A stretch of DNA of 64,000 nucleotides from Mytilus trossulus. Lineage: Eukaryota. The notes below the pieces were generated by a model that had not been told where the DNA came from, did not search any database, and was given only the letters and a program-made list of their open reading frames with translations. Made by a program: the position numbers and the translations under genes. How positions within the stretch are numbered: position 1 is the first letter of the stretch; each line of letters starts with the position of its first letter. Location of the stretch: positions 79,360,001-79,424,000 of the forward strand of contig NC_086375.1 in the NCBI RefSeq assembly GCF_036588685.1, written 5' to 3'. Of this stretch, positions 6,677-54,390 are shown piece by piece.

Positions 6677-9600
6677 TCATCTTTCACCATCTGAATCTCC
6701 CATTTGTTCTCCAGAATTGACAAACTTATGCATATTTTCATATGATAGTCTGTAGGTATGAAACTGTTCAATGTCAGTAATGTTTATAGCACCTTTTCGT
6801 TTGTAAAACTCAATTGCGGCTGTATTCCAGCTACACGCTCCCCATTCCATTTGATTACAACCGTCTTTTAGAGCTTCCTAAAACAAAACATACATAGTAG
6901 ATATATATTGTTTATCATGGTTGTGAAATGATGATATTGAATTAAAAAAAAATCTAAATAATTTTCCATGACCAGACATCAAGACGGTATATTTATAATT
7001 AGATGATTTATAAAAAGTCCATTATACAAAATGAAAACTATATTTCGTTTTTCGAAAGTGTATTCCAGGAAATCAGAGACATATAACAAAAATATGTACC
7101 GTCAATTTCTGTGTGTACAGTAGCGTTAATTTCAGACGATTCGATACCTCTTTTAGCTGGTTAATTGTTTTTATCTGTAATCACTTTCAGTGGTTTTGTC
7201 AATTGGTACCAACATTGTGTATTGTGTCATACTACATCAAACGTCATTTTCAAAGATGGAGCGCCCGACTCGCTTTTCTGTATTAACCTTGTATCGTCAC
7301 AGAACACTATAATTCAAACATTAGATAACCGAGGATGTTCACATTATCTTAAACTGTCAACCTCTTGATGTTTTCTGTGGGATATGTGAGTCAACATTTG
7401 ATCACCGATATTCCCATCTTATCAATACATTCATAAGATACAAATCCAGATCAAAAACAGAAAAGGATGGAAACTGACACGAGTCCCAAAAGCATCGATA
7501 TCAGATAACCGTCTTCTGTTTGTCACCCATCCTCCGTAATGTGAATCCAAACTCCATATATACATATGTGTGTTTGTGAAAATCTACTTCAAAACTAAAT
7601 TAGGTCAATAAAAAAGAAATAAACGACCCGGTAATTTGATATAAAACGACTTCAAACAAAAAAACAAAGAAAACAAAAGATTTCCAAAGACCTGACATGT
7701 AAACAGGTAATGGCATCGGGGAACAACAGTCACCCAGACATTGTTTACATATACTAGAGTTATTGACAAAGAGGTTTTTTGACTTTTTGAACTATTATGT
7801 CAGTTTGGTTTATTCAGACTATCCTTTGAATATAATGATATTTAATGCGACTGTCATACAAGTGAGAGGTTAAGCTAGCTACAAAGAAAAATTTAAGCCA
7901 CCATTTTATACATCAAAATATTTCTGTACCAAGTAAAGAATGTGACAGATATTTTTTTTAATTTTCCACCTTTGTTTATAAATTTTTAGTTATTTTTTTC
8001 AGACTATCATAATAAGTATCAGCTTTTAGTATTAGCTTTTAATAATTTAAGTCTATACCTTCACTGCTGTTCTCCACAGTCTGGTACCAACCCCATGTCG
8101 CTGGTGTTCAGGTTTCACATATAAGTCTTCCATGAATGCCTTTTTTCCTACCCACGATGAATATATGGTAAAGTACATTACATAACCAACTATGGCTGAA
8201 ATAGTTAAAGAATATTTGCTACAAATGTAAGAAACATTTTACTGTAACAAATGAGAAAGTTTTGATGTTTAAAAATAAGTATCCGAGATAAGTTAAAAAA
8301 ATTTAGATTAGGAGAATTGTACAAATATCTAACTCTGAAGTTATTGAATTATATAAAAAAAAAAAATCTGTAAGACTCATTATGCTAGATATACAAATTA
8401 TTTTATGCTATCAAAGTAAGTCTTTGTATAATGGTATTACAATAAGTTATTACATCCCTGTTTGTAGACTTGTTTGTGAACTCGTTATTTGCGGAATCCA
8501 AACAGAGAGCTTCCTCAAAGAAAAGAAAAAGAAAACAAAGGATCTTATAATGTTTCACTGTCAGGTATATTGATAATGTCTTGTTGCTCAATATCAATTT
8601 TTCTATGAGTGCTTGCAACTCATACATCCTGGTGAACCTAAAGTACCACCGATACTATAAGTAGATATTAGAAGATGTGGTGTGATGGTCAATGATAAAA
8701 CTCTCCATCAAATTCACTCGTTAAAACAAATAATCCATTAATGGTCAAAGTACAACCTTCAACATGGAATCTTGGCTTTCACAGAACAACAAGATATTAA
8801 GGGCATAAACAATACTAGTGTAAAACAGGAAAACCGACGTTTTAATCTATTTAAAAATCAAACAAAACATTCGAAAACGAAAAACACTTATAAACCACTA
8901 CTTAAGAACCACATAAACAATCGACAACCACTGAACAACAGGTTTCTGATTTAGGACAGGATCAAGCATCACCCTTACCTGAAATTATCACAACATAGAA
9001 AGACACACTATTAACTATCATTTGAAATGGTTTAACTCAATCATAATTACTTACAAAAAAGCAAACAAACACTAAACGCATCCATTTAATTTATGACACT
9101 AATTTATAAGGTCTTCATATAACTTGATTTTTTGGACTTCCAAATTTTGCCATTTAAAAATGGACTTCCCCTTTTTTTTTGTTCTGCCACTTTTTCTCGA
9201 TATTGATACAGATTCAGAAATCAAACTAGAATATATGACAAAGAGGATAATTTCGAAAAACTAAGGATTTTCTTATTCCAGGCATTGATTTCCTTAGCCG
9301 TATTTGGCACATCTTTTTGAAATTTGGAATCCTCAATGCTCTTCAACTTTGTAATTTTCTAACTTAATAATTATTTTGATATGAGCGTCACTGATGAGTC
9401 TTGTGTAGACGAAACGCGCGTCTGATGTACTAAATTATAATCCTGGTACCTTTGATAACTATCAACTTTTAAATTGTCAATATCCCGTTTCCAAGCAGTA
9501 ACAGTCCCTATCCCATAACGTCTCATACTATGTATTGAACATCCGTCATGTCAATCAATGTTCAATTATAACGTAACGCCCGTCTATGTTTACCTTATAC

Positions 9601-12600
9601 GTACTTCATTAACGGTTATGTGCTTCTGACATGAGAACTGTTCCTATAGAGTTGAAAGGAAATCCACTGAAATCGATCTTACAAAAGTCACCAACATATA
9701 CGACGGTTCTTTGTCGCTACTAATTAGCACCATATTTTCGTCGTCTCAAAATTAAGATATCAGAATAATCATCTGATCATCTATTACAGATTGTGACATT
9801 TCCACTGACTGCGGATTTGAATTGCAGAAGATGCATGCATAGCAGGTAACAATTACCTGTCAACGCACCCGGTCTCACTTTCGGAATTATTGCGTTACCT
9901 AAGTTTTTGTTTATTACTTTGAACAACTAAGGATTTTCTTATCGAGGCATAGATTACCAGAGCCGTACAGTATTTAGCAAAACTTTTGGAATTTTGGGTC
10001 CTCAATGCTCTTCAATTTTGTACTTGTTTGGCCTTAGAACTATTTTGATTTGAGCATGACTGATGAGTCTTATGTAGACGGAACGCGCGTCTGGTGTATT
10101 TAATCATAATCCTGTTACTTTTTATAACTATTGATTGATAAGTCTTCAATGTCGATTGATGTCATTGTGATTTGAACCCTTCTGTTGCTTTTATTTACGA
10201 AGTTGCAGAATGAATTAATTATAAGAAAAGAATTTGATTGATCAAATGAAATGTAGATATTATGACGCAAGTGCAGTTTTATTCATATTAAAACTACAAT
10301 ACAATTCTATGATTTACGCCGTTATTGCAAAAGCTATGGAAAAATTGCTTACTGCTAGTTTTAAGGTAGATCACAAGTATATATTTTTTGAGACAGAATT
10401 TTTTTATAATTTGCCAAAATGAAGATTTTACTATGTTATTTTCAAAAATTTAATAAAAAGTATGGGTCACCGTGCTATTTTTCAAGCAATGAGTCGTTTA
10501 AAAATTGCTCAAATTTGGTTAGTTTGTTCATGAAAAAACACATTGGTGTGCATAAAAAATATTCTATGAGATAGAATTTTGAAATAAATTGTGAAAAGAA
10601 AGGTTTCATAATATGTTTTAAGAAAATAAAAAGAAAACATGGTGTCACAGGACTTGTTTTCTTGCTTCAAGTGAAAATAAAAAATTTCCCTATTAGTCCA
10701 GTATAAATTTTGTACTAAAAGAATTATCTCACCTTAAATGGCGCATTTGAAAAAAAAAATGATTTTAAAACCAAAAAAAATGATATTTGTTAAAATATTT
10801 TGTATAATACAATTAATTAACAGGTTTTCTTCAAATAGAAAAAAAACAGTCTAACTATTGAATTGAAATCTGTCTCTAAATTTGCAGATTTAGGCAAATA
10901 ACTAGACCGATTTTGTACTGTGATTGTACAATCCAAGATGGCGGTATACCATCAATCTACCTTAAGGAACAGGTTTGTTTCTTCTCAACTTTTGCTCCGT
11001 GTGGTTTAAAACTGTTATACATAAAACAACATTGTTTGCACTATTATATACACTATAAAGGAACATTATAGAAACATACTTAGGAAACAATTGCATTGTA
11101 CCAAGCTTATATCAGAGTTTTTTGTTATATACAAATTATATCACGTCTTTTTAATATTTTTTCTTCTTCAAAATGTTGCCTCATCTAAGACATGCATTTG
11201 TTGTGGTCTTTTCAGGTCACTTAATAATAGTAACTATATCACAGAGGCATAGTTATTAACAAATAACCTACAAAATATCATAATGATGGAAATTGATAGA
11301 TTAAATCTTACTTTTAAAAACTAACGTTCCTGGAAAAGGGTGCTATATTATAAGAGTTTGTATTAATTTTACTTCTACTGATTCATGCTAACAACCTTTC
11401 ACTTAACCCCGGAACGAAAATGCTTTATTTGAAGATAATTGTGTTATAGTGAAATCCAAAAGCAATTTGGTGAATCATATTAATTATTTTGTTTTTGAAA
11501 GGAGAAAGCTTTTTTTCAAATAGGGATTAAGTTTGATTCAATCCATGTAATATTGTTGATCCTTCAAATCAGCTTATTCTAAAATATAACCAATTTATGT
11601 TACAAATCTTACAAGTGTTGTTTTTATTTTTGTTTTACAGTACCAAGCCAATACAGCTGCTGATGGAGTATAAGTCCCAAAGGGTATCTCAGCTCTGTTG
11701 TCAGTACCTCGGTATTGACATGGTAAATAAAAAAAAAATCGTTTTATAAATCTATAGAATAAGAGATCAACTGCCTCATTCAATGTTCGTTCTTCAAACA
11801 TTCGGTTTTGAACATTCTGAATAAATGAAAATCCAGAAAACGTTCGGACGCACAGCATTTAAAAAGTCTCATTTTTCTCTCAGTGAGAAATACATGATAA
11901 CATTAAGCACTGGTCACCAAGTTCATTTAAAAAAAAGAACTGTAATGATCATTGAGTCACGAACCTCTAAAAATTTTAATTTATCAATTGACATCTTGGC
12001 ACAAGTTAATGTAATGGTGAATATAATACTATTTGACGCAATCATGAACTTAACGAGGTTTTGTCTGGGTCATTTAGGCTGTTTTGTCATCGATCTATAA
12101 GCAACATTTTCATTTGCTTATCACAATCACCTACGAACAAAAACAAACTGATTGTTGTTTTGGATGCCGGATTAAACTTCATTAGAAACGCTTGGCATGA
12201 TAATGATAGAAATCTTGTTGTACATATTTTGACATGACACCCATGAAAACAAACTTACATCTGTGCCATAAAACAAACAACAGTTTTCTGTTTTATCATT
12301 GAATATATTTTAAAAAGATATTTTTTTCTCTTTCGATATAGAACTAAACTATTATAGCACTGGTTTGACGTTGGAGCATTGTTATCATATACTTGAATGT
12401 TAAGACGCCTATTACATCAACCAGCAATTGTAAAAAAACAAAACTTGCTTTCGTTTTGAGCAAACGTTAATATTAAAAATAATTGGTTAATGGCACAGTT
12501 TATAATGTCTTGGTTTAAATGTCAGCATATAGAAATGAATCAAAACAAAGCGATTGCGAACTATGAAATAAATAAATGCTAAATAGCTTGTCTAAAACAA

Positions 12601-15600
12601 TAACATACATTTCCAAAAAATTGAAAAGTATTTATTTCGCTTCCGGAAGCAAAAAAGTTCGGCAATACTAGCTTTTATTCTCATTGTACAAACACATTTC
12701 AAATCCATCCAAGACTGTCTGTATATTATATTTACCATTATCAAATTCTGCAACAAAGCAATCAAAAAGACGTTTCTCTCCAAATCCGTCCCTAAGAAGA
12801 ACTGAAAGAAATAAATGCCTGAATTTCATATATTCTTGTATGTTCTGATTTAGACGTCATTTTATGATTTTTTGCGTTGAGGCCTGGACTGAGTCGGGTG
12901 TGTCTATTCTGTGTTGGTCTTAGCATTATGTATTCGGGTTTAGTTTTCTGTAATTAGTTAATACTTCAGTTTCATTATGCATATCTCTTTAATATTCATT
13001 TGATAAAATTTACTCTTTGCAAAAGCATTAATTGTTCTAAATAATAAGGATTTGTTTATCACAAGCATAAACACATAGCCGTATTTGACACAACCTTTTT
13101 CAACTTTTGATCTTCAGTGCTGTACAACTTTGTACTTTTTTTTACTTTCGATCTTTTATATCTGGCCGTAACTGGTGAGTCTTGTGTGGAAAAGGCGTGT
13201 TTTTGGCGTATTGAATTTCAAACCTGATGCTTTTTGTTTCTATTAATCATGTGTTTCTTTGTCTAATATGTTCTCCTATTTATTTGTATTGTAGTCCTGT
13301 AATATTATGTTGTCATTTCAATGTTATATTTAACATTGCCATTAAAGTGCGAGGTTTGACATGCCACAAAACAAGGTTTAACCAATCATTTGTTTCCCTT
13401 AAAAATGTCCTGTACCAAGTCAGGAAGATGGCCATTGTTATATTATTGTTCGTTCTGTGTGTGTTACATTTGAACGTTGCGTTGTTTGTTTTCTCTTATT
13501 TTTTTAGTGTAAAATCACATTGCAATAAGACGTGTTACGGTACTTGTCTTTCCCAAATTCATGTATTTGGTTTTGATGTTATATTTGTTATTCTCGTGGG
13601 ATATTGTCTGATGCTTGGTCCGTTTCTGTGTGTGTTACATTTCAGTGTTGTGTCGTTTTTCTCCTCTTATATTTATTGCGTTTCCCTCGGCTTAAGTTTG
13701 TTACCCCGATTTTGTTTTTTGTCCATTGATTTATGAGTTTGGAACAGCGTTATACTACTGTTGCCTTTATTTAGAACTTTTAACATATCGCATTCGGAAT
13801 GTCTGAAAATTAACAGATATAATTTTAATGATTATATATTTGATCAACTTTTAGATATTTATATATTTGTTAATTTAAATCCAGTTTGCAACTCCATCAT
13901 ACATCAACTTACAGGATTTGACTCATTTTTATGGAATACGTTTTGTTTTGATGCATTGTCATACTCATTTAATGTATATACACTCATCAAAGATTCCAAG
14001 ATTGAATTTTTCTACGCCAATATATTTCCATAACTTTTGGTAACGATCGAATTTGATGAAGGATATTGGGTGTTTACGTGAAGTTGGTATTTCTCAATAG
14101 TTGGTTTTGCATGAAATGTATACTGCAAACAATTGCAAACCTATATTTGTTGTTGTTTTTTTTATCTTTTTTGCATTTTTTTTTGGTTTGTCTATTGTTG
14201 ATGACGTAAGATGACTGACAGTTGATTACATCCACATCATTTGTACTCACCAATCTACATAGGTTCTGGGGGTAAATCCTTATTTTTAAACATTGCTAAC
14301 ATAGCCTAGAGCTGAAAAAATCATTTACTTAAAAGGCAAAAAAGAGAAAAAAAATCACATAAAAAAGATGTAAATTTTTTTAATGCAGGGAGACACTTTT
14401 CCTTTTGGTTATAGATCTTCAATATAAAATGTAATATTCATCTAAACTGGGGAAATAATCCTGAAAATTGTGTACGAGCGAATGATGCCAAAATGATTAG
14501 ACAAACTAATAAGTTGGAAACAAAATGACAATGCCATGGCAAAAAAAAAAGAGAAAAAAAAAAGTTTACAAAACACAACTTTGACAACTAAGAATAAGCG
14601 ACAAAAAATATTTAAGGCTAAACAAAATACATTGAATGTATTATAAAAAGAAGGTTTATGTAATTGAAGTACTAACGGCATTATTGTGTTTTATAACAAA
14701 TTGATATTTGTGAGTTTAATAGATCACCTGAATAAGCATATTGTCGTATTTTATTTCACAAATTAATATTTTTAATTTACTTGACTACGTTAGGTTAAGA
14801 AAGAGTAACGAACGGACAGATGATTCACAGACAGACAAACGAAGACTATATTACCGCGGAGTAAATTAGAGGTCGTCCTTTTCGATCGAAACCTACTTGA
14901 AATATGGATATGTTTTGTTGTGTTGAAAAGACTGTAGTCGTTTAATGGTTTGTTTGGGATTTTTTTTTTGTTGTGTTTTTTTTGGGGGGGAGGGGGGGTT
15001 GTTGTTATAGCGTTCATATCATTTTGCCTTCGATTTATTAGTTAGAACAATCAATTTGCTCTCTTTTAATTAAATAATTACTTACTTTCTTCACTGATCA
15101 TAACTTGATCTTCAGCTTTTAGAGCTTTAGCTAATTCCTGTAAAAACACAATCGAAATTAAAATCTATATCATACTAAGAGATTAGAGTAAGGGGAAGAA
15201 TGTTATCTTCTCTTCTATAAAAAACAAAATTCGAAATAGTCTAGCAGCGAAGTACAATTTAAAGCGCGTTATTAATCAATTTATTCATTAAAAGACTTGA
15301 GATTTCATATTGTAAGGTATGCATTGTTTTTAAACATAACAATTTAAAATGTCCGCCAAATTAAAAATGGCCGATATAAGGTACATGTTCAACACCATAC
15401 ACTTCATGATGGTTTTCGGTATACAACAACACAGTTCGTTTTTAGATAGAACACGAAAATATAATTATTGTTATTATATTTTATTATTGTCAGATTTTAG
15501 GGTTGATCACCATTTGTCTCACAATTATTGAAATGTATACTAATCAATGAAAAACGCCTAAAATGCTACAAGAAACGTGTATTGGTTGTTCCTATCTATA

Positions 15601-18337
15601 TACATAAAATATAAAAATATTAGAATATTCGATATAATCTTATAATTATTGTTTAACTTTGCATATTTTGCTGCATTTGACCTGTTTGAAGCAACTTTAT
15701 AGTCAAAATGTAAGGCAGATTGCAATTTTTTAAATTCTTTACCTTTTTGTACTTTTTTGTACCCAAATATGTACTTACAGTAATTCTAAATTTAACCATC
15801 AACCTAAATACATTCACTTATATGATAAGATTCTTTATTCGTAATAAAATGCTCATATTTCATTATTCATTTTATTTGTTGCCATTCTCTGCAGATGATT
15901 CAAACTGTTTGAAAATGTAAAACACATATTCAAAGGCAATAGAAGTATACCGCTGTTCAATAGTCACAAATATGTAATTAATCACTGATGCTTTCATATT
16001 TGTATAAGTAAATTCTACAAAAGGTGAAAACAGCACGTTTTAATTTTATGCGACAGAAGCGCTTTTCTAGATGTACCTTCATCAGGAATGCTCTAATTTG
16101 AATAATTCAAAGCCAAAAATGTACAAAAACCGTACAAGCTGTATTGCTTTTGAATATAATTGTATTGCATATTGTATACGCTTTCTAATGAACACCAGAA
16201 CTGATAATTGTCATCAAGGTAAAACCTAACATTTTTGAAAACATTAATATAACATATCTCAACTTAAAACTATCAATTTTAAATACTAAACACTTTAAAA
16301 ATTCGACTTATTCTGATATTGTTTCTTTTGATTTTGTAACTTTTTCACATGCTATAAATATCAAGTGAATTGACAAAAAATATTTGAATTTGATTGAATT
16401 ATATAAAAAAAAAAAAAATGTTTCTACATTGGATAGAGGTATAGGGGAGGATTGAGATCCCACAAAATATGTTTAACCCCGCCGCATTTTGCGCTTGTCT
16501 CACGTCAGGAGCTTTTGGCCTCTATACGCCTTGTATGATTTTTAAATTTAGTTCATTTATATATTTCAGACATCCATAATCACTGAATAAGTACACATTT
16601 TTGTTTAGGGGTCAACAAAAGTACACCTCCGCGGGTGCGCTGTGTTGACGACCTATTTGTAGACTTCGTATGTTTTCTGCTCATTGGGCGGGTTGTTGTC
16701 TCTTTTACCCTTTCCCCATTTCTATTCTCAATTTTATAATATAAAATAGAAGAAATAACAAACAACTGATGCATATTCGCCTGTCTAGCTCGCCCACTGT
16801 CATACATGTAGCCTCAACCTTGACAATTTAAGATTAACATATTTTCCAGACCTTCTCAAGTTTAGGTTTTTGATATTTGTTACTAAAAACGCTTTGGTTA
16901 CACTTTTCAAATAAATGCATTTTGATTCAAAGAGAATGGCTTTCTTGCATGCACCAATTTACTTAGCATCTTATAAACCTTAAGAGATCTTTCTTGAAAA
17001 AAATATATGGGCGAAAATATTACACCTAACCCTGACCAAAATACCATTGCAAATTAAAAAAATATCGTATAGCTGATCTTAATCTTGTCCTTAAAATACT
17101 GCGGATAAAATTGTTTTGGAAATAAAAACAAAATGTTCCATTTGACGATTTAACATGACAACAAACCATGACAAAATATGGAAAATGTCTTGATTTTCCT
17201 AGTTTAACGTTAGTTGTTTTGATTAAATAATTATTAGGATTCCAAAAGTACTTGGAGCCTCAAGAAAAAACATTACATAGAGGATGAAATTGTGTAAATA
17301 GAACAAATAAATATTTCTTCAATTCATTTTTTGTGTGTGTTTGTAATTCATTACTTTTTTCTTAATATTATGCATTTTCTAACATTATGCGCAAATTTTA
17401 CTTTATTTTCCTGTGCATAAAACGGACTGAAGACACGCACACGCACAGAACTACACACGGTTTCGGTTCAAATTACTTGCATACATATCAAACAACTAAA
17501 TTATTTTTACTCTAAATGATTCAAAGTTGGGTTTTTTAAAAGCCAGACAATTTCAGATTTTCAGATTTTGTTTTTATTTTTAGTTCTTTGCACTTTCTCC
17601 CTTCTTTAATCAAAATGTTTACGTAAACGTCAAAACTATTGACATTAAGATTAACCACCGGGAAACCAATAGTTCAGAATATACCATACGTATTCTAAAA
17701 TTTAAATTCAGAAATTTTAAAAAAAGTTTGAAATTCTACCTTTTTCCAAAACTGGAATACACAAAAAAAACATTGTTATGGCGAAAAACGAACAAAACGA
17801 CCAAACTGCAAGTCTCTTAAACAGTGTATAGAAACTTAAGACCGATAAAAATTTTCGATCATGGTACACAAATTCATAAACCAACCAATCAGCATAATAG
17901 ATTTGGTGTTTCGAAGTTTTTTTCTATGAGTACTGAGTGATGTTTTATGACCAAGCGCCCTGGTGTTACAAGTGACAACCGTATTGTAAGTAGGTTGATA
18001 CGTTATAATAAGTGATTAGGCATCACAAATATTGTATGGAATAATTCTACTAAAGATCAGCTATTCACGTCATTAAGACATTGCCGTCACTTCTTGTTTC
18101 AAACATTTAATGGCACAAATAATTAACTGTAAAGGAGAACCCTGATTTCTCCTTATTTCAAAACTTACTGTCTACAAATTCAACTTGAAGTTCCGATGTC
18201 TCTCTTCTAAAAAACATTTAATCGATAATCTATGGGTAGTGAACAGACATGTGTATATGGTAATTACATACCTTTATTGCTGAAAGAATATCTTCACAGT
18301 CCCCTGGTAACATTCGACGAATTGTATACTTTTCCAT
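6677..18337 (-). CDS. SAT2: Diamine/thialysine N-acetyltransferase (SAT1/SAT2 family GNAT), 5 coding exons, 173 aa
   Basis: Exons 18337-18272 (66 nt), 15137-15086 (52), 12801-12736 (66), 8195-8059 (137), 6877-6677 (201); all GT-AG and phase-compatible. Protein: MEKYTIRRMLPGDCEDILSAIKELAKALKAEDQVMISEEILLRDGFGEKRLFDCFVAEFDNAIVGYVMYFTIYSSWVGKKAFMEDLYVKPEHQRHGVGTRLWRTAVKEALKDGCNQMEWGACSWNTAAIEFYKRKGAINITDIEQFHTYRLSYENMHKFVNSGEQMGDSDGER. Has the DGFG, YSxWxG, EDxYV, QxxGxG (acetyl-CoA) and WN..FYK..GA motifs. One-to-one orthology to SAT2 versus SAT1 is not established. Confidence 0.92.
9251..9462 (+). mobile_element. Hammerhead-ribozyme-bearing short retroelement (retrozyme-like family A), 5'-truncated copy in SAT intron 3
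   Basis: Matches the copies at 19993-20336, 22981-23163 and 24781-25131, and ends in the shared ...CCTGGTACCTTTGATAACTA. It interrupts a degenerate PLE RT remnant (about 9195-9250 and 9465-9530). Confidence 0.8.
9385..9428 (+). ncRNA. Minimal type I hammerhead ribozyme (intact core)
   Basis: GCGTCA-CTGATGA-GTCT(TGTGT)AGAC-GAAA-CGCGCG-TC-TGATGT: CUGANGA/GAAA core, 4-bp stem II, palindromic ACGCGCGT stem III, GUC cleavage triplet, 6-bp stem I. Confidence 0.85.
9925..10131 (+). mobile_element. Retrozyme-like family A copy with mutated hammerhead core
   Basis: Same body as 9251-9462; the hammerhead at 10054-10097 has GGAA in place of GAAA. Confidence 0.75.
10365..10961. mobile_element. Non-autonomous DNA transposon, Kolobok-like (TTAA TSD)
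   Basis: TTAA|GGTAGAT ... ATCTACC|TTAA. Purine-purine start plus TTAA duplication fits Kolobok rather than piggyBac. Confidence 0.65.
12850..13771 (+). mobile_element. 5'-truncated copy of a retroelement 3' region (family C) with a dead hammerhead module
   Basis: Colinear with 27275-28392 and shares the terminus CAGCG(G/T)TATACTACTGTTGCCTTT. Shorter copies with the same 3' end occur at about 19060-19310 and 45420-45530. Confidence 0.75.
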
Positions 18338-19992
18338 TTTTTTGTATTTTCATACAATGTTAAATTAGAATTATATATTATCAAAATCAAAAAGTATAAA
18401 TTATAACGATGTCTATTGTTACGTATAAATTTTCGACAATATGCACAGATATGGAGATGTGGTATGGTTGCCAATAAGACACCTATCAACCATAGTTGCA
18501 AACAACGATTGGTCACCATAAGGCCTTCAAACAGTAAAACAAATCCATACGGCAAGCTATAAACTTTAGACAATATACATATCATCTCATTAATTATGTT
18601 CCAACTATAAATTAATGACATAAAAATGGAACATCATACTTAACATCTGTACAAATTCTTTAGTTAAAATGTTAAAAGTGATATAAACACATATTTAAGT
18701 AATATTGTTAATTCAGATGTAATCTGCAAAGTCTTATGAACCGCGTTGTCTATACTTTTTTTTGTATTTTCAATATAGTGATAGTGATGGAAAATGGAGT
18801 TTCGGTTCGATATATATGATTTTCTCTTTCGCCGTTAATGGGTTATGATTATTGATAAGTTGTGAACTGGCATTTTATATTGTTTCACATGATCTACACT
18901 GGTAACCAGAAGTTAGATTGATCGGCAAAAAAGGTATTAACCTTATTTAAAAAAGAAAACTGAATATCTAAATAAGATTGTCAGACAAAAATCTAAACTA
19001 TGTTTTCAATTTATTTTAAATCATTTCTAATCATTCTAATACTCTCTTATTTTTGAGATATTAAGATAAGACGTGGCACGGTACTTGTTTATCCCAAATT
19101 CATGTATTTGGTTTAGATGTTATATGTGTTATTCGCGTGGGATTTTGTCTGATGCTTGGTCCGTTTCTGTGTGTGCTGCGTTTCGGTGTTGTGTCATTGT
19201 TCTCCTCTTATATTTAATGCGTTTCCCTCGGTTTTAGTTTGTTACCCCGATTTTGTTTTTTGTCCATGGATTTATGAGTTTTGCACAGCGGTATACTACT
19301 GTTGCCGTTATTATTCAACAAATATATCAAAATTAGTTATTTACTATATGGTTAAGCTATCTATTTATTAACGTCCAATTAAACGAATTCAAGCTATAAA
19401 GTTGATTTAAGCAGTTGTGTTATTAATGCATTAAAAAAAACTCATAGATAAGAGACCTTCTTCGATTTTGAATTGAAAGTACATAAATTCTCCACAAGTA
19501 GATAGCGAAGCGGTTTCACCCGTGATCAATATAAACTACTCGGAGTTTAGTATAACGTTCATTATCACTAACTTGTATACATATTTGTTTAGGGGTCAGT
19601 TGAAGGACTCCTCTGGTTGCGGGAGTTTCTCGTTGCATTGAAGACCCATTGGTGGCCTTCCACTCTTGTTTACTCTATGGTCGGGTTATTGTCTCTTTGC
19701 GACACTACCAATTTCCTTTTCCTATTTTACAAAGTACAAAGACAAACAGTGATTAACACAGGAGTAATTCAGAAATCACTTGCCAAGCGTCCGGTTGTTT
19801 TTTTAGAAAAAATCATGATAAAATCCTGAACTCTAGGAAAAAGAATTATATCAAACATAGCTGTTGGTACCTATCGGTAAACGTTTAAAGTAAACTTGAT
19901 AAGGGACAAAAGTAGAAGTCGTCCGACTTTTAAAAGATTTATTTTATATATACTCTCCCATTTGTAAACTATTTTTTCCCGCTTAATTTATT

Positions 19993-20336
19993 TACACCAC
20001 TGGGTCGATGCCACTGCTGGTGGACGTTTCGTCCCTGAGGGTATCACCAGCCCAGTTGTCAGCACTGCGGTGTCGACATGAATATCAATTATGTCGTCAT
20101 TTTTATAAATTTCCTGTTTACAAAACTTTGAATTTATCGAAAAACTATCCCAGGAATAGATTACCTAAGCCGTATTTGGCCCAACTTTTTTGGAATTTTG
20201 GACCCTCAATGCTCTTCAACTTCGTACTTGTTTGGCTTTTTTTTTTAATTTAGATATGAGCGTCACTGAAGATTCTTATGAAGACGAAACGCGCGTCTGG
20301 CGTACTAAATTAAAATCCTGGCACCTTTGATAACTA
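19993..20336 (+). mobile_element. Full-length (~345 bp) retrozyme-like family A element
   Basis: Starts TACACCACTGGGTCGATGCC and ends CCTTTGATAACTA. The hammerhead at 20260-20303 has a CTGAAGA/GAAA core but a mismatch at the base of stem II. Confidence 0.8.
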
Positions 20337-20892
20337 TGAAACAAGAAATTAAAATGGAGGATGAGTACTCTTTTGTGTAATATTTGACTCAATTTTTTGG
20401 AACTTTCGGTCATGAATTTGCTCTTCAACTTTGTACCTGTTTGGCTTTCTAACTATGTTGATCTGATCGTAACTTTGATAACTAATTATGTAATAAAAGT
20501 GCATTTGTTCGGTCTTTTCCAAGTTTAATCATCAACATGGCTAAATAAATTATTGCTTAAGGTAATGTGAGATGACACGTCCAGGTAATCAAGCGACTGC
20601 TCACAATTATATAATTCAGGTCCACGCATCTCCTTACTGTTGAGCGTAGCAGTGTACACGGCGGTTACTTAGAACTTGAAAAAATAACCACTTAGAACTT
20701 CTAAATTCCATTTACTTTTAAGATGGTAATATGTGAATAAAAAGTTTAAATAATCATTTTCATAACAGTGTGGACAACCGCAATACTCATGTTCGTAATG
20801 GTACTGAATTATTCACCTTAAACTGGTTTGTCATCGGCTATCGATAACAGTGATGTTACGCTCACTCAGTCTGTCAGAGGCCTTCGGGACAA

Positions 20893-22980: not shown

Positions 22981-23163
22981 CAGGCATAGATTACCTCAGC
23001 CGTATTTGGCACAACTTTTTGGAATTTTGGATCCTCAATGCTCTTCAACTTTTTACATGTTTGGCTTTATAAATATTTTGTTATGAGCGTCACTGATGAG
23101 TCTTATGTAGACGAAACGCGCGTCTGGCGTACTAAATTATAATCCTGGTACCTTTGATAACTA
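22981..23163 (+). mobile_element. Retrozyme-like family A copy (3' half)
   Basis: High similarity to the 3' half of 24781-25131. Confidence 0.8.
23087..23130 (+). ncRNA. Minimal type I hammerhead ribozyme (consensus, intact)
   Basis: GCGTCA CTGATGA GTCT TATGT AGAC GAAA CGCGCG TC TGGCGT. Confidence 0.87.
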
Positions 23164-23179
23164 ATTATAGCCCCTTCAA

Positions 23180-24369: not shown

Positions 24370-24780
24370 GTATTTACACAATCGAACGTTGGAATTATTG
24401 CCTAGATGAGAAGCAGTTATTTCATATATTTTGTTAACACAATCTATAGAAAATAATTCATTTGAACACATCAACTATGCATTGATTTCAGGTATGGACT
24501 TGAACAAGACGGTCCCGTTGCATCCTTACTTAGTGCAAAAAAAGTAACTATATTTAATCACAAACAACCTAAAAAAAACAAGTAGTAATTTATCTTTTTA
24601 ATGATGGTATTTATCATTCTTAATGTAATGTTATTATCAAATGTATGCCATTCTAACGTTCCGAGTGCACCTTTCAATTCAACAGTCTAGTTAATAATAA
24701 TACGGTTATGGTAATGTAATAGTACATTTTCATATTAACGACTTTTGACTCCGGAATAAATATTATTCAACAGGTTACGT

Positions 24781-25131
24781 TACACCACTGGGTCCATGCC
24801 AATGCTGGTGGACGTTTCGTCCCCTGAAGTATCACCAGCCCAGTCGTCAGCACTTCGGTGTTGACATGAATATCAATTATATGGTCATTTTTTAAAATTC
24901 CCTGTTACAAAACTTTGAATTTTTCGAAAAACTAAAGATTTTCTTATCCCAGGAATAGATTACCTTAGCCGTATTTGGCACAACTTTTTGGAATTTTGGG
25001 TCCTCAATGCTCTTCAACTTTGTACTTGTTTGCCTTTACAACTATTTTAATCTGAGCGTCAATGATGATGCTTATGTAGACGAAACGCGCGTCTGGCGTA
25101 TTAAATTGTTATCCTGGTACCTTTGATAACT
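24781..25131 (+). mobile_element. Full-length (~350 bp) retrozyme-like family A element
   Basis: TACACCACTGGGTCC ... GGTACCTTTGATAACT. The hammerhead at 25056-25099 has ATGATGA for CTGATGA, so it is probably inactive. Confidence 0.8.
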
Positions 25132-25491
25132 GGTTATATGTGGTAGAACATCCTGTTACCTCGGTCCAGCAAGAGCAAGAGCAACGTAAATTCAAAATCT
25201 TAAATGATACAATTTGGAGAGAAGATTAAATATTTAAATGATTTTTTTTTTATTTCTGACTTATTTCTAGTAAAATAGGAAATCCCCTCTTAATTGCACC
25301 GATCATATATTTGATTTTATCTTTTTTGGTTGTTGGAAATTGACCGAACACCAGGATGACCTACCACAGTATATGTAACCTGTCGAAAAATTGTAGAACC
25401 CGAAGTCAAAAATTGGTATTATGAAAATGGTCTATTGTATGTCAAGAAAAGAAGACTTTTCAACAAGTTTGATTAACCCATGTAGTATTAA

Positions 25492-25815
25492 ATAGTTATC
25501 AAAGGTTCCAGGCTTTTAATTTAATACCCGTTTCGTCTTCATAAGACTCATCAGTGACGTTCAGCTCAAAACAGTCATACAGCCAAATAAGTACAAAGTT
25601 GATGAGCTTTGAGGATCCAAAATTCCAAAATGTTGTGCCAAATACGGCTAAGGTAATATATGCCTGCTATAAGACAATCCTTAGTATTTCGAAAAATTCA
25701 TACTTTTGTAAACAGGAAATTCATAAAAGTGACCAAATAATTGATATTCATGTCAACACCGAAGTGCTAACTGCTTGGCTGGTGATACCCTCAGGAACGA
25801 AACGTCAACAAGCAG
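25492..25815 (-). mobile_element. Retrozyme-like family A element, opposite orientation
   Basis: Reverse complement of family A; hammerhead stem III and the cleavage site are deleted (about 25525-25560). Confidence 0.75.
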
Positions 25816-26512
25816 CTCCATCTCTAATAATTTCTCATGAAATTTTCCCCAATTTTTATCTATATGGTCACCTTGGTTTAATAGCACTTCACAATTTGTC
25901 TTCAACATTTCTGTGTTAAAATCTGCATAGTTACCTCTATCGTAGCATATTTTGTTCTATTGTCAATTTTTTATTTTGTGAAAATAGATTATTAGATATC
26001 TGATATAGTTTATAAGATATCGCATATAATTTATAAGAGATCTCATATTAATTTCCTTTATAAAATATCTTATACTAATATAAGTATTTTGTTTTCTATT
26101 ATGTTTTGAGTTTACTGTTGTTTGTGATTTGATATTATTTTTTTTCCTGCCATGGCACTGTTAATTTATTTTCGTCTTAATAGTCGGAATGTCCTTTCTC
26201 TCTTTTATCTGATATCAATGCACCGTTTCTAAGTCTATTATAGATGATTGTGTGTAGCAATGTCTTTGTAATAAATCGGTATTGCTCTGTCGGTATTGAC
26301 CTGTTCAAAGGAGTATGTTCGGGAAGGGCCGATTTTGGCCTCAAATTTCAGGTTCATCTAACAAAAGTTTTGGACCCTTTTTTAACACTTAAGTGTCCAT
26401 TTCAGTTGATTCGATTAGTTTTTGTGAAAGATTTTAACTGATTTTTTCATTAAAAACGGGCTTCAATATGAAAAATCTATCAATATGTCAAAAAAACGTC
26501 ACTTTTCAGATA

Positions 26513-26722
26513 GTATTGATACGTTATTCACGTGCTTGTTCACACTATACGGACTTCATATACAGGAGTGTGCTCCTTACGCAGAAACTGCTCCAACAAA
26601 GTTATGAGGAGGACAGATTAAAATTGACACTTCGTAAATTTTATGGACACCATCACGAATTGGTGGATCCATATGATGTCTCTTTAATCAAACTAGCTAA
26701 GGACATTTTTACCACATGGTAG
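26513..26722 (+). mobile_element. Penelope-like RT C-terminal coding fragment
   Basis: LIRYSRACSHYTDFIYRSVLLTQKLLQQSYEEDRLKLTLRKFYGHHHELVDPY...FTTW*; same domain as the 1-335 fragment. Confidence 0.8.
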
Positions 26723-31900: not shown

Positions 31901-33193
31901 CTAACGGTGAATTTTGGGATACATGACCTTTTACAATTTTTGCCTTAAAACATTTGATAAAAATGTTTGTTATTCTTATAGAGATGACTGCACTTTTTAT
32001 TGCTATGTTAGGAATATGGATTAGTCCCCTTTGAACTTTTCGATGTTTATATTTGAATATGAAACTGTTTTTGGAGTTTGCTCTCAGCGTTCAGATAATC
32101 CAAATCGGAAAATAATATATATATAATTCCGTATGTTCAACTATGATGCCTCATCTTCTATGCAATACCATGAATTTCTGCACTGGACACGATTTATTCA
32201 AGCAATTATAGTCAATTGTCTCATTTAAGGTTTGAACTCTTACAAAACATAAAAAAGAGAAATAAAAACTAATGCATCTTCGATTCTCTTTGTCAAATAA
32301 TTTAGAAAAAAAGTATTGTTTCAAATAATATTCATGCCATAGAACATTTTCATGATATCAAACTCAAGACACTTGTATAGTTTTTAAGGCCATGATATTA
32401 TTTTTTTATTGTTCTTCTTTAAACTGTTAACATATTTTATTTTTCTTTCTTTTGTGAATATATTTTTACTCAATATTCATTTTTGATAAAAAAAAAAAAA
32501 AACAATAAGCGTGATGTTATAAATAATATGGTTAATTAACCAACTGTAAGTTGAAATGTACGAAACTGAAAATAGTTTAACAATTGTACACGCAAATTTA
32601 TTTTTGAAACTTGGGTCTCTTATGTCGTTTTTTTAGCTGTATTTGTTAATATTTTTGTTCGATAAATTCGAACTTTATTAGGCCATTTAAACTTTCTTGA
32701 TTCCAGCGTTACTTATCCTGCTGATCGTGAGTCATTTGTATCGAAACACGTCTGCCTTTCACAATTTGAAGCCTGATATCTATGATGTGTGTCTCTTTGG
32801 TAAATATGCTACCACCCTCTTTTTTTTATACAAAGGCCAATATTTTTCAACATTTAACAGTTGCTTCGAAAATAAAATTTATTATGTAAATAGTTCAAAA
32901 TAAATAGACATTTAACTAATCAGTAAAATAAAAAGATATAAAAAATATAGAATGAAAAGAAATAATGAAAAATCATAGCACCTTACAGTGCACGTCAATA
33001 TGTTATACGTCATGGTAAGTGGTGTTAACGTACATTCATCAACAATGTCTTATAATATCCGTTTCCCAATAACTCCATTGTTTTACATAAAAAGAAGCAC
33101 ATACAGTATTCTATTTAAAACAACAGACTATTCTAATCATTGTTCAAAGCCGTCATTACACAATCGAGCATGACAGTTCCATTTTCTTTTCTT

Positions 33194-36100
33194 TCAATAT
33201 TTTCTCTACAAAATGAAGAAATATATAGTTATACATGTCAAATTATTCATTACTGAGGGTTTTTTTTAAATACTTTCATTGTATGCTCCAGGTTGAAATT
33301 TCTACATAAAAGTTTATGACATCTATGACACTTATAGTTTTCCATCAAACTTATAAAAAACTGTAGTTTCGACGCTAATATAATCACGGTATCTACTAGT
33401 GAAAATACTTAGTTTGTTTCTTGACTTCATTTATTAGAAAAGGCCGTCTAAGTCTGTATTTACTTCATAATCTGGGTCAGTTGAAAAGGTTTGATTAACT
33501 TTTGACACTGAATGTATTTTTTGCTATTGTGATTACCTTATCTTTTTTAAAACACATATCTTCCCTGTGTTGACCTATAGATGGATTTAAGGGATGTAGT
33601 AAAAAAAATAAAAATTGGAATTATGTCATGAAACTCCTTTTCGAGATATTTGGTTATAAACCATGGCTGCAAAAGAAAGACACTGACTTTTATTATCCTA
33701 TTGCCACATAAACAGAAGATTTGGCTAGTCATAAAACCAGGTTTAACCCACCATATTTTCTTAAATTGTCATGTACGAAGTAAGCATGTGGTATTTCACA
33801 ATATTTAGGCTTTACTGTACTTACCTTTCCATATGGTGTTGATACTTGGTTTCGGTTTACAGGTGTTCTCAATCTAAAGATAATATCATAAAAAGTTTAA
33901 CATTTTTTGTTTGCAAATTAACCATGCTAGTAGAAGCAGCTGTTTTTCGTCCTTTTTGGACGTGTTTTGAATTTCACCATTATAAGCAGAGCCGATCAGA
34001 ATAAATGATGAGTGCATTTTGCATACGTTGGTCCCATACCGATTTCATTACATGTAGTTTAAGTTATCACAAGCCTAGTAGTCAGCACTTTTCGTGCTGA
34101 CATGAATTGTCATTGATATGGTTATATTTATAAATTTACTGTTTAAATTTTTTGAATTTTTTGAAGTACTTAGGCTTTTCTACCTCAGGCATAGATTACT
34201 TTAGCTGTATTGTGCAACTTTTTTTAGGAATTTTGGTTCTCAATGCTCTTCAACTTCGTACTTTATTTGGATTCGAGCGTCACTGATGAGTCTTTTGTAG
34301 ACGAAATGCGCGTCTGGCGTATATACTAAATTTAGTCCTGGTGTCTTTAATTAATACATTTTGAAAATCAGAATCTACGATGGTTAAGATGATACCTGGC
34401 ATTAAGATAGCAATAAATGAAACCAAAAAGGTATGAAATAAGTCTTTGATGTTTAAAAAGACCCTTACGTCCTTTATCAAGTAGTTAATCATCCCAATTA
34501 TTCATAAGCATCGTAGGAAATTTTGAAAATAAACATGACATTCCGAAAAACAGACATTTGAAACCCTACATCTCAATGTTACATACTACTGTATGCAATC
34601 GTGTGACCCACATTTCGTAGCTCGTATTCCTATTTTGCTGCTTTTATGTACTGTAGTAATTCAATTTTAGGTGTTCGTTGTTATTGTTGTTAACATGTCG
34701 AAACGAACTATTATATTATGTATTTATGTATTTCTCTGTCCTGAGTTTTGTACTGTATTCCTGTCATTTAATATTGACATTTACCGGTACTTTTTACATT
34801 GAAATCAAGCGAGAGGTTGGGCTAGCCGTGAAACCAGATTTGATTCAGCATTTTTTTCTCTTAAAAAGTCCTGTACCAAGTCGGGGAGTTGACAGTTGTT
34901 ATCGTTCATTTGTTCGATTAATAACTTTTGAACTGGGTATACTACTGTTGTCTTTAATTTACATTCACTAAGTATGTGTTTATACATACCTCTTTTCCTC
35001 CTCTGATAGTAGTATCTTCATGGCTTCGATTTCTGCTTTAAGTGGAATGTATGATTCCTTGGATACATTCAATTCTTGCAGTTTTGCAAACACAGCATTT
35101 TGCATGTCTTGCAATCTTTTCTCCATTTCACGAAGCTGGGCAGCTGCCATCAACCTTTCTTGTGCAATAAGATCTCCCAACGATTGTTTTTCTTGTGATA
35201 AAGAGCTTACCTACAATAATTCATGTAATGGAGTAGATAATCTTCACGGAATTTTCTTTTCTTAATGGTAAAATGATCATATATTTTTGTTTTCCTTTAT
35301 AAAGAAATAATCTTAAGTAAACAGTGAAAAAAAACTTTACATTGGACAACCCGAATGTTTTTTGTATGGTTGTTTAAATCTTGAATCCTAAAATGTTTGT
35401 AAAAAATTTAACGGAATAGTGCGGTTTAATTGCATTATAAGAACAGAAGTATTACTAACGGCAAACTTGAGTTACTGGAGGCAATATGGTGACCTATAAT
35501 TCATCTTCGTCATGAACTCTAGTTGAGAGTTGTCTCATTGATCACTCCAGTTTAATTTCACAATTTCTAAAATTGTTCAAGTGTCTAATGGGATACCAGC
35601 AAGATTGGTTGAAAATTGAAGCGTGCAAATCAGAACTTTTCCCGCATAACTGATAGTCATATCAAATATGCAACTAAATCTTAATATTGCAAGATAGAAA
35701 TTTTCATTAACCGTTTAAAGGAATTACATTCACAATGATTTCAACATCATATATAAGAAAATATTTACTTGTGCTTCAAGATTGGCAATTTTGGCTTTTA
35801 AGTCACCGAAACTTCCGAAAATTCCAGCCTTTTCTTTTTCTAGTCTTGCTAAAGCAGCGGAATCACTCTCCATTTTTACTCTCAAAGTAGAGATCTGTAA
35901 AGATAAAATGATAATATATGAAATCAATTTAAACATTTGGATAAGCGTTGGTAAAAAAGAACCAGTATCGGATATAATGAAAAATTATATCGAAATGCAC
36001 TTTGAATAAAGAACTATCCAATTTATAAATTTTAAATAAACATTTGTAAATACTATTTAATGGCAATTTCTTTAATGTGTTACATTGAAAAGTCTTATAA

Positions 36101-51474: not shown

Positions 51475-54051
51475 CTGAAAAAAAGTATGGAATAGTTAAT
51501 AGAGTACTAATGTAAAGTTACTGTGATATTAAATAAATGTGCATTGTTTTAATACAAATGTATTCCTGAAAACGGTTTAATCTTGATTACTCAATATACA
51601 TGTACAAGGGTTATATCATTTGTACGATGTTTTGAAGAAAGATCCTTGAAACATGCGGATTTCATGTTTGTTTCTAAATATTTTAGTACTTATCCCTTTT
51701 CTATTTTTTAACGAGGCTTGTATCACAATCGTATTGTTTTATGTAATAATAATAGAACATATTTTTCTAGTTTTATTTGAATTCCTATAAAATGTTCAAA
51801 TATATGGTATACAGTAAGTCATCTTTTTTACCTATATAAAACTTTTTTTTTGGGGGGGGGGGGGGGGGGTAAGACCAGTCAGTTATATGGTTCTCCCTTG
51901 TTTCACTTTCAATGTAGACATTTTCATTCTTTTAATAGCTGAACACGTCTAGATTATGCGTTACTCATCTATAGCTAAATGGTCAGTAAAATTTAGGTCA
52001 CATGAGGACCGATTCGTTTGATTGAAAGTTTTTGGCTTGCAAGTCAATTATACATCAGCGATATTGTTTAGCTTACTTTGACAAATTTGACCAAATCCCC
52101 GCTTATATTTAATACAACAAACAAAAAACTAGATATATCTGAAAACGCTTAGTGCTAAAATACACAAAAGAACCTTATTTGATATATAATGAACCTTTAA
52201 AAAATTATGCTCAGTGCGAAAAAACACAAACAAACCTAAATATATACCTTCATCAGAAATATTGTTTTTATCATGAAATTTACACCCATCACCTGAAACC
52301 TTAGTTGTTAAAATCTAAATTATTGTCTTTTATTTTTCAAAGAAATCGACATAGTTTAATAAAGGCCATTGTAGGTCACTGTAGTATACCGCTGTTAGAA
52401 ATTCATAAAACGATTGAAATAAAATAAATCCGGGACAGTTTTTTCAGCGTATTGTAGACAATAGATACATTCACATTGACAACTTCTTTGTGTGTACAGC
52501 ACAGCAACATTTTTACAGTGTAAAATAACTTTTCGTCATCAATAAGAGAAAAAAATAAATGAAAACTGGTATCACTCTGCTTATATGTTCTCATGTTGTA
52601 CTGACAGTCTTAATTATTAAGAAATGTTCTTATCACTAAGCATCTGAATCAAAAGAGAGTACTTTATGTTTGTAGCTTAGTAATATCCATTAAAAGATAT
52701 GTGTTTCAAAATTTTCTATGGAGTAGTTTTATATTAAAAGTAAACCACAAGAAATTGAATAACATAAAAACAGAAGCTATTGAAATAACGTACCATGGAC
52801 ACAGTTGAGTAACATCATATGCACTATAAAGAATGAATGTTGTAGCGATTTAAACTTAAATGCTCGCTTAAATGGGCTGTAAAATAAATATTTAATGCAT
52901 TGAATTAAAGTCACTGTTGTATCCAAGTATGTTAAACTTATGTAGGTGTGTAGGAATGAAGGTTATTACTAAATTGTTTCGATGAATGTTTGTAGGTAAA
53001 AATGTAAAATCATTTATTCCGCAGTTGTGTAAGTCAATATTATAAATAGATTTTTGTATTTAAGAAAAAAGCAATAAATAACTTTAACATGAAAACGGGT
53101 GTTTTTATTAAAGGTATATGCATGATCTGCATTAACAAAATCTTGGTAAGGAAGCAGTCAGTAGATACTAGAAAACAAAATAAAAAAAACCTGGTAAATT
53201 AAATTAAATTTGTTCAATTGAGAGCATACTTAAACTAAGAAAAATGCTAATATATGTGTTCAACTAATATATTGTTGATTAGGAGTAAAAGATGATGTGG
53301 AATAATGCAAAACGATCGAAACGCAACAGTATTTGTATATATATATATTGAATTACTTAGTTATTGTCTTTATTTGTTTTTGTTGTTGTTATATGTCACA
53401 AACTGTAAAGTTTATATGGCAATAAAACTTTGAATTTGAATTTGAATTTGAATTTGAGTATTCGACATATATAGCAGCTAATAATTCAATCGGAGTCAAG
53501 CTTCAAATCTACCAAAGTTAGAATAGACTGCGAACAAATATATAACTTGTAATCTTTAATTCTTTAGAAAGTCAATCTTGGTTAAATTACATTCCAAGTA
53601 CATATAAAAAAAGAAGATGTGGTATGATTGCCAATGAGACAACTCAAGAGACCAAAATGACACATAAATTAAAAGCTATAGGTCAACGTACGGCCTTCAA
53701 CAATGCACATACCGCATAGTCAGCTATAAAAGGCCACGATATGACTGTAAAACAATTCAAACGAGAAAACTAATGACCTTATTTATGTAAACAAAATAAA
53801 GAAAAAAAATATGTAACACATGGCACTGTTAAGACTAGTGCCAGTTTTGTTTCCGCTTTTGCTGGCATGTCACCATATCTGTCTATTCATGTTTTGTTTT
53901 AATATATTTCATATAGAGTTGCTTTGGGTTTTTTTTGTTTTTTTAATTTTGTGCCTTTAGTGCGTTAGTCACTGTAGCCAAAGGTTGTAAGAGGGGGGAA
54001 TGATTGTTAATGAGACAGTAATTTAGCAACAGCAAAGTATTTCACATACTA

Positions 54052-54390
54052 ATAGTTATCAATGGTACCAGGATTATAATTTAGTACGCCAGATGCGTGT
54101 TTCGTCTACATAAGACTCATCAGTGATGCTCAGATCAAAATAGTTATAAAGCCAAACAAGTACAATGTTGAAGAGCATTGAGTACCCAAAATTCCAAAAA
54201 GATGGGTCAAATACGGCTGAGGTCATCTATTCGTGGGATAAGAAAATCCTTAGTTTTTCCAAAAATTCAAAGTTTTGTAACAGGAAATTAAAAAAAACCA
54301 ACCATATAATTGATATTCATGTCAAAACCGAAGGTCTTGACTTCTTGTCTGGTGATACCCTCGAGGACGATACGTCCAGCATCTACACCA
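54052..54390 (-). mobile_element. Near full-length retrozyme-like family A element
   Basis: Reverse complement of family A. The hammerhead at 54129-54086 keeps CTGATGA/GAAA but has a mismatched stem III. Confidence 0.78.

What the first reader, a model, noticed from the sequence alone, without database searches (positions are those of the whole stretch)
9251..54390. Dense population of ~350-bp hammerhead-ribozyme retroelements (retrozyme-like) at all stages of decay
Seen: hammerhead motifs at 9385-9428, 23087-23130 and 34277-34320 (intact); 10054, 20260, 25056 and 54129(-) (point-damaged); 25560(-), 29920(-), 30730 and 32720 (eroded). That is about one per 6 kb. The fold is type I with a palindromic ACGCGCGT stem III. 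Stem I variation tends to preserve pairing (TGGCGT versus TGATGT against GCGTCA). Known: such minimal hammerheads mark Penelope-like elements and non-LTR retrozymes, can cleave as dimers and yield small circular RNAs; I recall this class being reported in mussels, so the class itself may not be new. All three intronic family A copies here (9251, 9925, 34075) are antisense to their host genes, as expected if sense copies would cut the pre-mRNA, though three is a small sample.
Basis: partly seen in the sequence, partly recalled or inferred. Interest (0 to 1): 0.7.

Follow-up and report, generated by a model that had tools for sequence, protein, structure and literature searches.

The report
Mussel retrozymes ride Naiad retrotransposons
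These repeats are scattered, mostly broken copies of a known ribozyme-bearing mussel repeat (a retrozyme); nearly all stop about 40 bases past the ribozyme's cut site, just before a predicted RNA hairpin that also opens Naiad jumping genes, so the Naiad enzyme likely copies them into the genome from circular or tandem RNA.

Summary
The 11 hammerhead motifs are real. They belong to the published Mytilus non-LTR retrozyme family (PMC7229834; sequence match to PMC4918200 file 11): 354-355 bp units, 15,790 exact motifs genome-wide, long tandem arrays. The class is known. Two side claims fail: intronic antisense bias is no stronger than for a ribozyme-free repeat (4:10 vs 23:64, Fisher p=1.0), and stem I changes in dispersed copies are not significantly pair-preserving (p=0.12). 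What I found in no paper searched: 33 of 36 unselected copies end 32-48 nt past the cut site, none at it, with scattered 5' ends and no TSDs. Right after that point the unit carries a 23-pair hairpin that also opens two Naiad Penelope-like families and follows their 3' ends; 9 of 23 pairs covary. This points to Naiad RT as the helper and explains why circles or tandems are needed. Untested in vitro. The scan reported the same Naiad-hairpin link before on other DNA; I reached it before that look-up.

The parts
9251..9464 (+). Retrozyme A1, 5'-truncated (unit 184-397); intact hammerhead 9385-9428, cut after 9422; intronic, antisense to a diamine-acetyltransferase-like gene
9898..10134 (+). Retrozyme A1, 5'-truncated; damaged hammerhead 10054-10097 (GAAA>GGAA); same intron
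11634..11723 (+). Eroded piece of the 5' hairpin region only (retrozyme or Naiad start)
   Evidence: no stable fold
12853..13772 (+). Distal 3' UTR of a Naiad-1 copy, with a dead-hammerhead retrozyme relic (12955-13234)
16038..16127 (-). Hammerhead fragment of a further retrozyme-like family (resembles L286)
19988..20338 (+). Full-length retrozyme A1 monomer; 5' hairpin about 19996-20059; hammerhead 20260-20303 with stem II damage
20381..20474 (+). Internal retrozyme fragment without hammerhead core
22981..23171 (+). Retrozyme A1, 5'-truncated (unit 212-402); hammerhead 23087-23130 identical to array units; cut after 23124
24780..25131 (+). Full-length retrozyme A1 monomer; 5' hairpin about 24784-24847; hammerhead 25056-25099 with core damage
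25488..25822 (-). Near-full retrozyme A1; cleavage site deleted
26438..28397 (+). 5'-truncated Naiad-1 Penelope-like element: RT C-terminus to 26722, 1.7-kb 3' UTR holding a 24-bp inverted retrozyme 3' end (27177-27200) and a partly duplicated dead-hammerhead relic (27418-27876)
29846..30058 (-). Eroded retrozyme A2
30504..30805 (+). Eroded retrozyme A2
32662..32787 (+). Heavily eroded retrozyme A2 3' part
34065..34355 (+). Retrozyme A2, 5'-truncated; core-intact hammerhead 34277-34320; intronic, antisense to an intermediate-filament gene; closest to the published 375-nt M. galloprovincialis retrozyme
54051..54381 (-). Near-full retrozyme A1; hammerhead with U16.1 lost

Best explanation
These are dispersed, mostly 5'-truncated insertions of the known mussel non-LTR retrozyme, likely copied into the genome by the reverse transcriptase of Naiad Penelope-like elements, which would recognise a predicted hairpin that both element types share and start copying a few bases upstream of it. 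Steps: (1) tandem arrays of 354-355 bp units exist (shown here); (2) arrays are transcribed, self-cleave and are ligated into circles (published for M. galloprovincialis, not tested here); (3) the hairpin lies 45-105 nt downstream of the cut site, so on a linear cut-to-cut monomer RT starting at +40 could copy only about 40 nt, whereas on a circle or uncut tandem it copies a whole unit or several (inferred); (4) Naiad GIY-YIG endonuclease nicks AT-rich DNA and target-primed reverse transcription gives the fixed 3' end, variable 5' truncation and no TSD (pattern shown, enzyme inferred); (5) solo copies lack a second ribozyme and usually the hairpin, so they are likely dead on arrival and decay almost neutrally (inferred).
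For: Family: 15,790 exact motifs, arrays with 354-355 bp period; by-eye match of copy 34065 to the published 375-nt Mytilus retrozyme. Ends: 33 of 36 copies from unselected DNA end at unit 386-402 (cut = 354), none within 17 nt of the cut; 5' ends spread from 1 to 340; TSD length 5.5 vs 5.2 for mismatched pairs in 22 loci; public-run contigs also break off at +41 to +43 (loose ends). Hairpin: retrozyme and Naiad-1 starts fold alone into the same 23-pair structure, z -2.7 and -2.8. 24 of 30 loci with the Naiad-type hairpin motif are followed by a Naiad ORF; the ORF has GIY-YIG before RT and the DKA and CxC motifs (diagnostic per PMC8557442 section 6). Across 11 family representatives 95% of cells pair, 9 of 23 pairs change on both sides, 0 of 500 shuffles reach this; RNAalifold gives the same structure. 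Naiad-1 3' ends stop mostly 5-8 nt before the stem, retrozyme ends mostly 4-8 nt before it. Ribozyme-free mini-tandems of 145, 148 and 201 bp consist of a Naiad 3' end plus the hairpin. Precedent: a Poseidon PLE RT initiates internally, downstream of its hammerhead, needs about 55-60 nt 3' of the start and does not need cleavage (PMC11167929).
Against: No biochemical test. The inner part of the hairpin was fixed by my search pattern, so only the outer stems and loop-closing pairs are independent evidence, and related sequences can beat shuffles. The hairpin heads the transcript unit and could instead be a promoter or translation element. Hammerhead-bearing PLE clades (Poseidon, Neptune) were not searched in this genome, so another helper is not excluded; a strict scan found no non-retrozyme hammerhead in the roughly 1.7 Mb then held. 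Circles were not shown here: all runs were contigs. The monomer hammerhead fold is not the predicted minimum (-3.4 vs -9.2 kcal/mol). The PAc signal is described as an AC-rich stem loop; I did not test likeness to it.
Confidence: 0.72

Rival explanations
1. The retrozyme descends from a Naiad-like element (hence the shared hairpin), but the hairpin is a promoter or translation signal and another RT (hammerhead-bearing Poseidon/Neptune PLE, or a LINE) does the copying.
For: The hairpin lies at the 5' start, 25-37 nt before the first ATG, where PLE internal promoters sit (PMC8557442 passage). Xenopus retrozymes match pseudo-LTRs of annotated PLEs in genomes where only Poseidon/Neptune were detected (bioRxiv 10.64898/2026.07.22.740005).
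Against: Both element types end at the same distance before the hairpin; covariation indicates RNA structure, not a DNA motif; the non-coding retrozyme needs no translation signal; Naiad RT pieces number 23,752 candidates with near-identical young copies.
Confidence: 0.17
2. The repeat is a satellite spread at the DNA level (unequal crossover, extrachromosomal DNA circles); the ribozyme is incidental.
For: Arrays of more than 50 units; no TSDs; a few copies end elsewhere (L042-L046).
Against: A fixed 3' end with scattered 5' ends in 33 of 36 copies is polar and not expected from DNA recombination; the hammerhead core is more conserved than flanks (7.9% vs 17.2% change, p=2e-7) and covaries between families. 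DNA-level growth may still lengthen arrays.
Confidence: 0.06
3. One reading: sense-oriented intronic copies are purged because the ribozyme cuts the pre-mRNA.
For: 3 of 3 window copies antisense; 4:10 in dynein genes; copies about four-fold rarer in dynein genes than in sampled DNA (p=0.002).
Against: The ribozyme-free repeat D20 is as biased (23:64; Fisher p=1.0); ribozyme-free Naiad ends are depleted in dynein genes as well; a core-intact sense copy sits in a dynein intron. Small sample.
Confidence: 0.2

Closest known systems
Mytilus galloprovincialis non-LTR retrozyme (Cervera and de la Pena 2020, PMC7229834; 375-nt sequence in PMC4918200 Additional file 11)
   Same: 350-390 bp low-GC tandem unit, type I hammerhead, similar subfamilies; the published sequence reads along window copy 34065-34351.
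   Different: Count here is 15,790 exact motifs against about 5,000 reported; the paper's main text gives no insertion ends, no hairpin role and only suggests PLEs as helpers. Its supplement was unreadable and may hold more.
Naiad Penelope-like elements (Craig et al. 2021, PMC8557442)
   Same: 5' truncation, partial tandems, no clear TSD; two Naiad families here share the 5' hairpin and the end position with the retrozyme.
   Different: Naiads code for EN-RT and lack canonical hammerheads; the retrozyme codes nothing and has one. The passages and section read describe no 5' hairpin.
Retrozymes as non-autonomous PLEs (Li, Clavereau, Pollet 2026, bioRxiv 10.64898/2026.07.22.740005)
   Same: General conclusion that animal retrozymes depend on PLEs; depletion from introns.
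   Different: Xenopus pLTR homology and co-occurrence only; no mollusc sampled in the main text, no Naiad partner, no cis signal or end mapping.
Poseidon PAc of Anolis (Frangieh et al. 2024, PMC11167929)
   Same: RT starts internally, downstream of the hammerhead, and needs RNA 3' of the start site.
   Different: Other PLE clade, autonomous, start 85-92 nt past the cut; text has no mention of Naiad, retrozyme or circles.

Membership tests
Metazoan non-LTR retrozyme | Type I hammerhead in each unit | tested here: met
Metazoan non-LTR retrozyme | Tandem repeats of 150-450 bp, GC below 45-50% | tested here: met
   354-355 bp, GC 37-38%, arrays elsewhere in the genome; none in the window
Metazoan non-LTR retrozyme | Non-coding, no LTR | tested here: met
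   first-ATG frame 17 aa; unit is a simple tandem
Metazoan non-LTR retrozyme | Self-cleavage and circular RNA in vivo | not testable with these tools
   Published for M. galloprovincialis; only contigs available here
Mytilus retrozyme family | Sequence identity to published element | tested here: met
   by-eye match of the text extracted from PMC4918200 file 11 to window 34159-34320; no identity figure computed
Non-autonomous Penelope-like element | Fixed 3' end, 5' truncation, no regular TSD | tested here: met
Non-autonomous Penelope-like element | Terminal sequence shared with an autonomous PLE | tested here: met
   about 75 nt at the junction shared with Naiad-1 and Naiad-2
Non-autonomous Penelope-like element | Mobilised in trans by that PLE's RT | not testable with these tools
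   needs biochemistry or a cell assay
Naiad (helper element) | N-terminal GIY-YIG, RT, DKA and CxC motifs | tested here: met
   927-aa frame in L235: GIY-YIG 58-146, RVT_1 673-776 (below cut-off), motifs read
Minimal PLE-type hammerhead | Helix III absent or one pair | tested here: not met
   two pairs plus 4-nt palindromic loop

The most novel reading that the evidence does not exclude
A 58-nt bulged hairpin is the Naiad reverse-transcriptase start signal; because it lies downstream of the start, any RNA circle that carries it becomes an endless template. The mussel retrozyme is then a ribozyme-made circle that hijacks a hammerhead-free retrotransposon, and hairpin plus Naiad protein is a portable system for writing circular RNA into DNA as tandem arrays.
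Probability: 0.55. Interest if true: 0.7.

Novelty: new variant of a known kind. Interest (0 to 1): 0.48.

Why it matters
The element itself is published. How animal retrozymes are copied back into DNA is an open question, and nothing that I found in print says what Naiad RT recognises. The shared covarying hairpin and the matching end positions name a helper enzyme, a 58-nt signal and a start site, all testable with one purified protein, and give a reason for circularisation.

Tried and rejected
Ribozyme-specific intron orientation bias: not detected. Stem I covariation among dispersed copies: not significant (the first run had a column offset and its rates are discarded; 4 Naiad-UTR-like rows were left out, among them L184, which labelled retrozyme). 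TSDs: none above chance. RNA runs for exon joints or circles: contigs only, uninformative; no expression claim is made. 'Family B' as a separate element: rejected, it is the Naiad-1 3' UTR. Retrozyme derived from that UTR block: less likely than capture, as the relic has a dead core and is absent from the short UTRs of tandem Naiad-2 copies. Other Rfam hits (MIR161, MIR2646, twister-P3, Hammerhead_3) are far below gathering scores. Kinase family search for intron sampling gave mostly single-exon genes and was not used. Alignment A1 had one misplaced row and was replaced. Literature searches with no hit for the specific claims; two searches returned only the papers cited. Supplements of PMC7229834 (too large) and of the 2026 preprint (closed) were not seen and may bear on novelty.
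Full report
Observation. Rfam Hammerhead_1 scores five of them, best 33 bits at 23087-23130, just under the gathering score. The exact motif occurs 15,790 times in the 1.3-Gb genome and its reversed control never; many copies lie in head-to-tail arrays with a 354-355 bp period, one of more than 50 units. In the window only two copies are full length and none is tandem. The window is locally rich: 12 pieces in 64 kb against 10 in 200 kb of evenly spaced samples, p=0.002; the sample rate would extrapolate roughly to 65,000 pieces genome-wide.

Identity. The family is the mussel non-LTR retrozyme. PMC7229834 (parts 1-4 of 6 read, through the discussion; supplement unreadable) reports about 5,000 type I hammerheads in 350-390 bp repeats of Mytilus galloprovincialis, monomer cleavage at about 0.1 per minute and abundant circles. 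The 375-nt sequence in Additional file 11 of PMC4918200 (supplement passage only) reads along window copy 34065-34351 by eye. That the host is a mussel is inferred from this match; the species was not determined.

The three copies are indeed intronic and antisense: minus-strand exons of a diamine-acetyltransferase-like gene flank 9251 and 9918, and 34065 lies in an intron of a minus-strand intermediate-filament gene. I tested the bias in 21 dynein heavy-chain genes of known strand, 1,172 kb. Retrozyme pieces were 5 sense:10 antisense, 4:10 after merging one tandem pair (p=0.18). A ribozyme-free repeat, whose sense direction I inferred from its common end, gave 23:64 (Fisher p=1.0), and one of three core-intact intronic copies is sense. 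Depletion in these genes also affects ribozyme-free Naiad ends. So no ribozyme-specific effect is visible, at low power. Among 30 dispersed copies, 17 of 42 changed stem I pairs keep pairing against 31% expected, p=0.12; the core is more conserved than the flank, 7.9% vs 17.2%. Compensatory changes in stems I-III do appear between families. The palindromic stem III could pair as a dimer (-13.3 kcal/mol) while the forced monomer fold is weak (-3.4).

Insertion ends. In DNA not selected for the ribozyme (window, flanks, samples, dynein genes), 33 of 36 copies end at unit position 386-402, that is 32-48 nt past the cut; the other three end at 296, 325 and 372. 5' ends run from 1 to 340. Loci chosen by an intact motif agree, mostly +40 to +44, with exceptions in L040-L046, and contigs of two public runs break off at +41 to +43. 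Target-site duplications are no longer than chance in 22 loci. The template therefore ran through the cut site: an uncut tandem or a re-ligated circle.

The helper. A repeat at 12853-13772 and 27278-28397 proved to be the 3' UTR of a young, abundant Naiad Penelope-like family; its 927-aa frame has GIY-YIG before RT and the DKA and CxC motifs (PMC8557442 passages, section 6 and supplement rows read). In tandem Naiad copies the 75 nt right after the 3' end align with the 75 nt right after the retrozyme 3' end. Folded separately, both give the same 23-pair bulged hairpin. A motif search found it before a Naiad ORF in 24 of 30 loci examined (of 150 matches), in two families 63% identical in protein; of the other six, five belong to ribozyme-free mini-tandems of 145-201 bp. 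Animal DNA in metagenome contigs added further Naiad and retrozyme families. Over 11 representatives, 95% of cells pair and 9 of 23 pairs change on both sides; 0 of 500 shuffles reach this, slid controls fall to 37-51%, and RNAalifold finds the same fold. The inner stem was fixed by my pattern, so the outer stems carry the weight. Naiad-1 ends (22) and retrozyme ends (19) both stop mostly 4-8 nt before the stem.

Mechanism. Shown: arrays, fixed 3' end, 5' truncation, shared covarying hairpin, matching end positions. Published: cleavage and circles. Inferred: Naiad RT binds the hairpin and primes just upstream of it, as a Poseidon RT starts internally and needs about 55-60 nt downstream (PMC11167929, parts 1-2 of 4 read). 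On a linear cut-to-cut monomer this would copy only 40 nt, like the 24-bp end at 27177-27200; on a circle it yields whole units and arrays. Solo copies such as those in this window are likely dead on arrival. All 12 Naiad-1 loci and all 8 stretches (one overlapping) also carry a dead-hammerhead retrozyme relic in the UTR; tandem Naiad-2 UTRs lack it, so it is probably a captured insertion.

Known and new. The family is known, PLEs were proposed as helpers in 2020 (also review PMC7761336, passages read), and a 2026 preprint (parts 1-3 of 5 read, supplements closed) shows pLTR homology in Xenopus and intron depletion. Searches found no paper naming Naiad as helper or describing the hairpin; subscription journals are not covered. 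Earlier notes of this scan report the same link on other DNA; they are unchecked AI notes, seen after my own tests, and count as no extra support. One gave the lead to the published sequence. Verdict: real; known element, new helper link; interest 0.48.

Noticed in passing
window 26438-28397, 12853-13772; L221-L240: Young Naiad-1 family whose 3' UTR carries a partly duplicated retrozyme relic with a dead hammerhead; a subset also holds a 24-bp inverted retrozyme 3' end (27177-27200) that other copies lack.
   Followed up: partly
G000:C5:60421617-60422423 and C7:84508062-84508858; L246, L249, L266: Ribozyme-free tandem arrays of 77-78, 145, 148 and 201 bp built around the Naiad hairpin: natural minimal units.
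   Followed up: partly
window 16038-16127 (-); L286, L288, L354: Further hammerhead retrozyme families with different stems II and III but the same hairpin about 40 nt past the cut.
   Followed up: partly
window 28814-28967, 29255-29404, 44655-44811 and others: Very common repeat (D20) with a shared end, 23:64 oriented in dynein introns; type not identified.
   Followed up: partly
window 34983-38556 and 45548-51506 (-): Two tandem intermediate-filament-like paralogues.
   Followed up: partly
window 6680-15164 (-), 56965-59255 (-), 63640+ (+): Diamine-acetyltransferase-like gene, FAA-hydrolase-domain gene, and the start of an RRM gene.
   Followed up: partly
window 20864-21482: 20-21 bp minisatellite; next to it a GFA-domain frame at 21422-21766 (-).
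   Followed up: no
window 28390-28535: Inverted repeat right after the Naiad 3' end that gives weak miRNA-family hits; probably a small MITE-like insertion.
   Followed up: no
G000:C1:26.00-26.03 Mb, C3:16.31-16.36 Mb, C4:20.13-20.15 Mb: Long tandem arrays (1.7-1.9 kb period) of near-identical intronless kinase-domain frames.
   Followed up: no
L034, L051; window 24780-25822: Tail-to-tail retrozyme pairs with short spacers, unlike the head-to-head inversions typical of PLEs.
   Followed up: no
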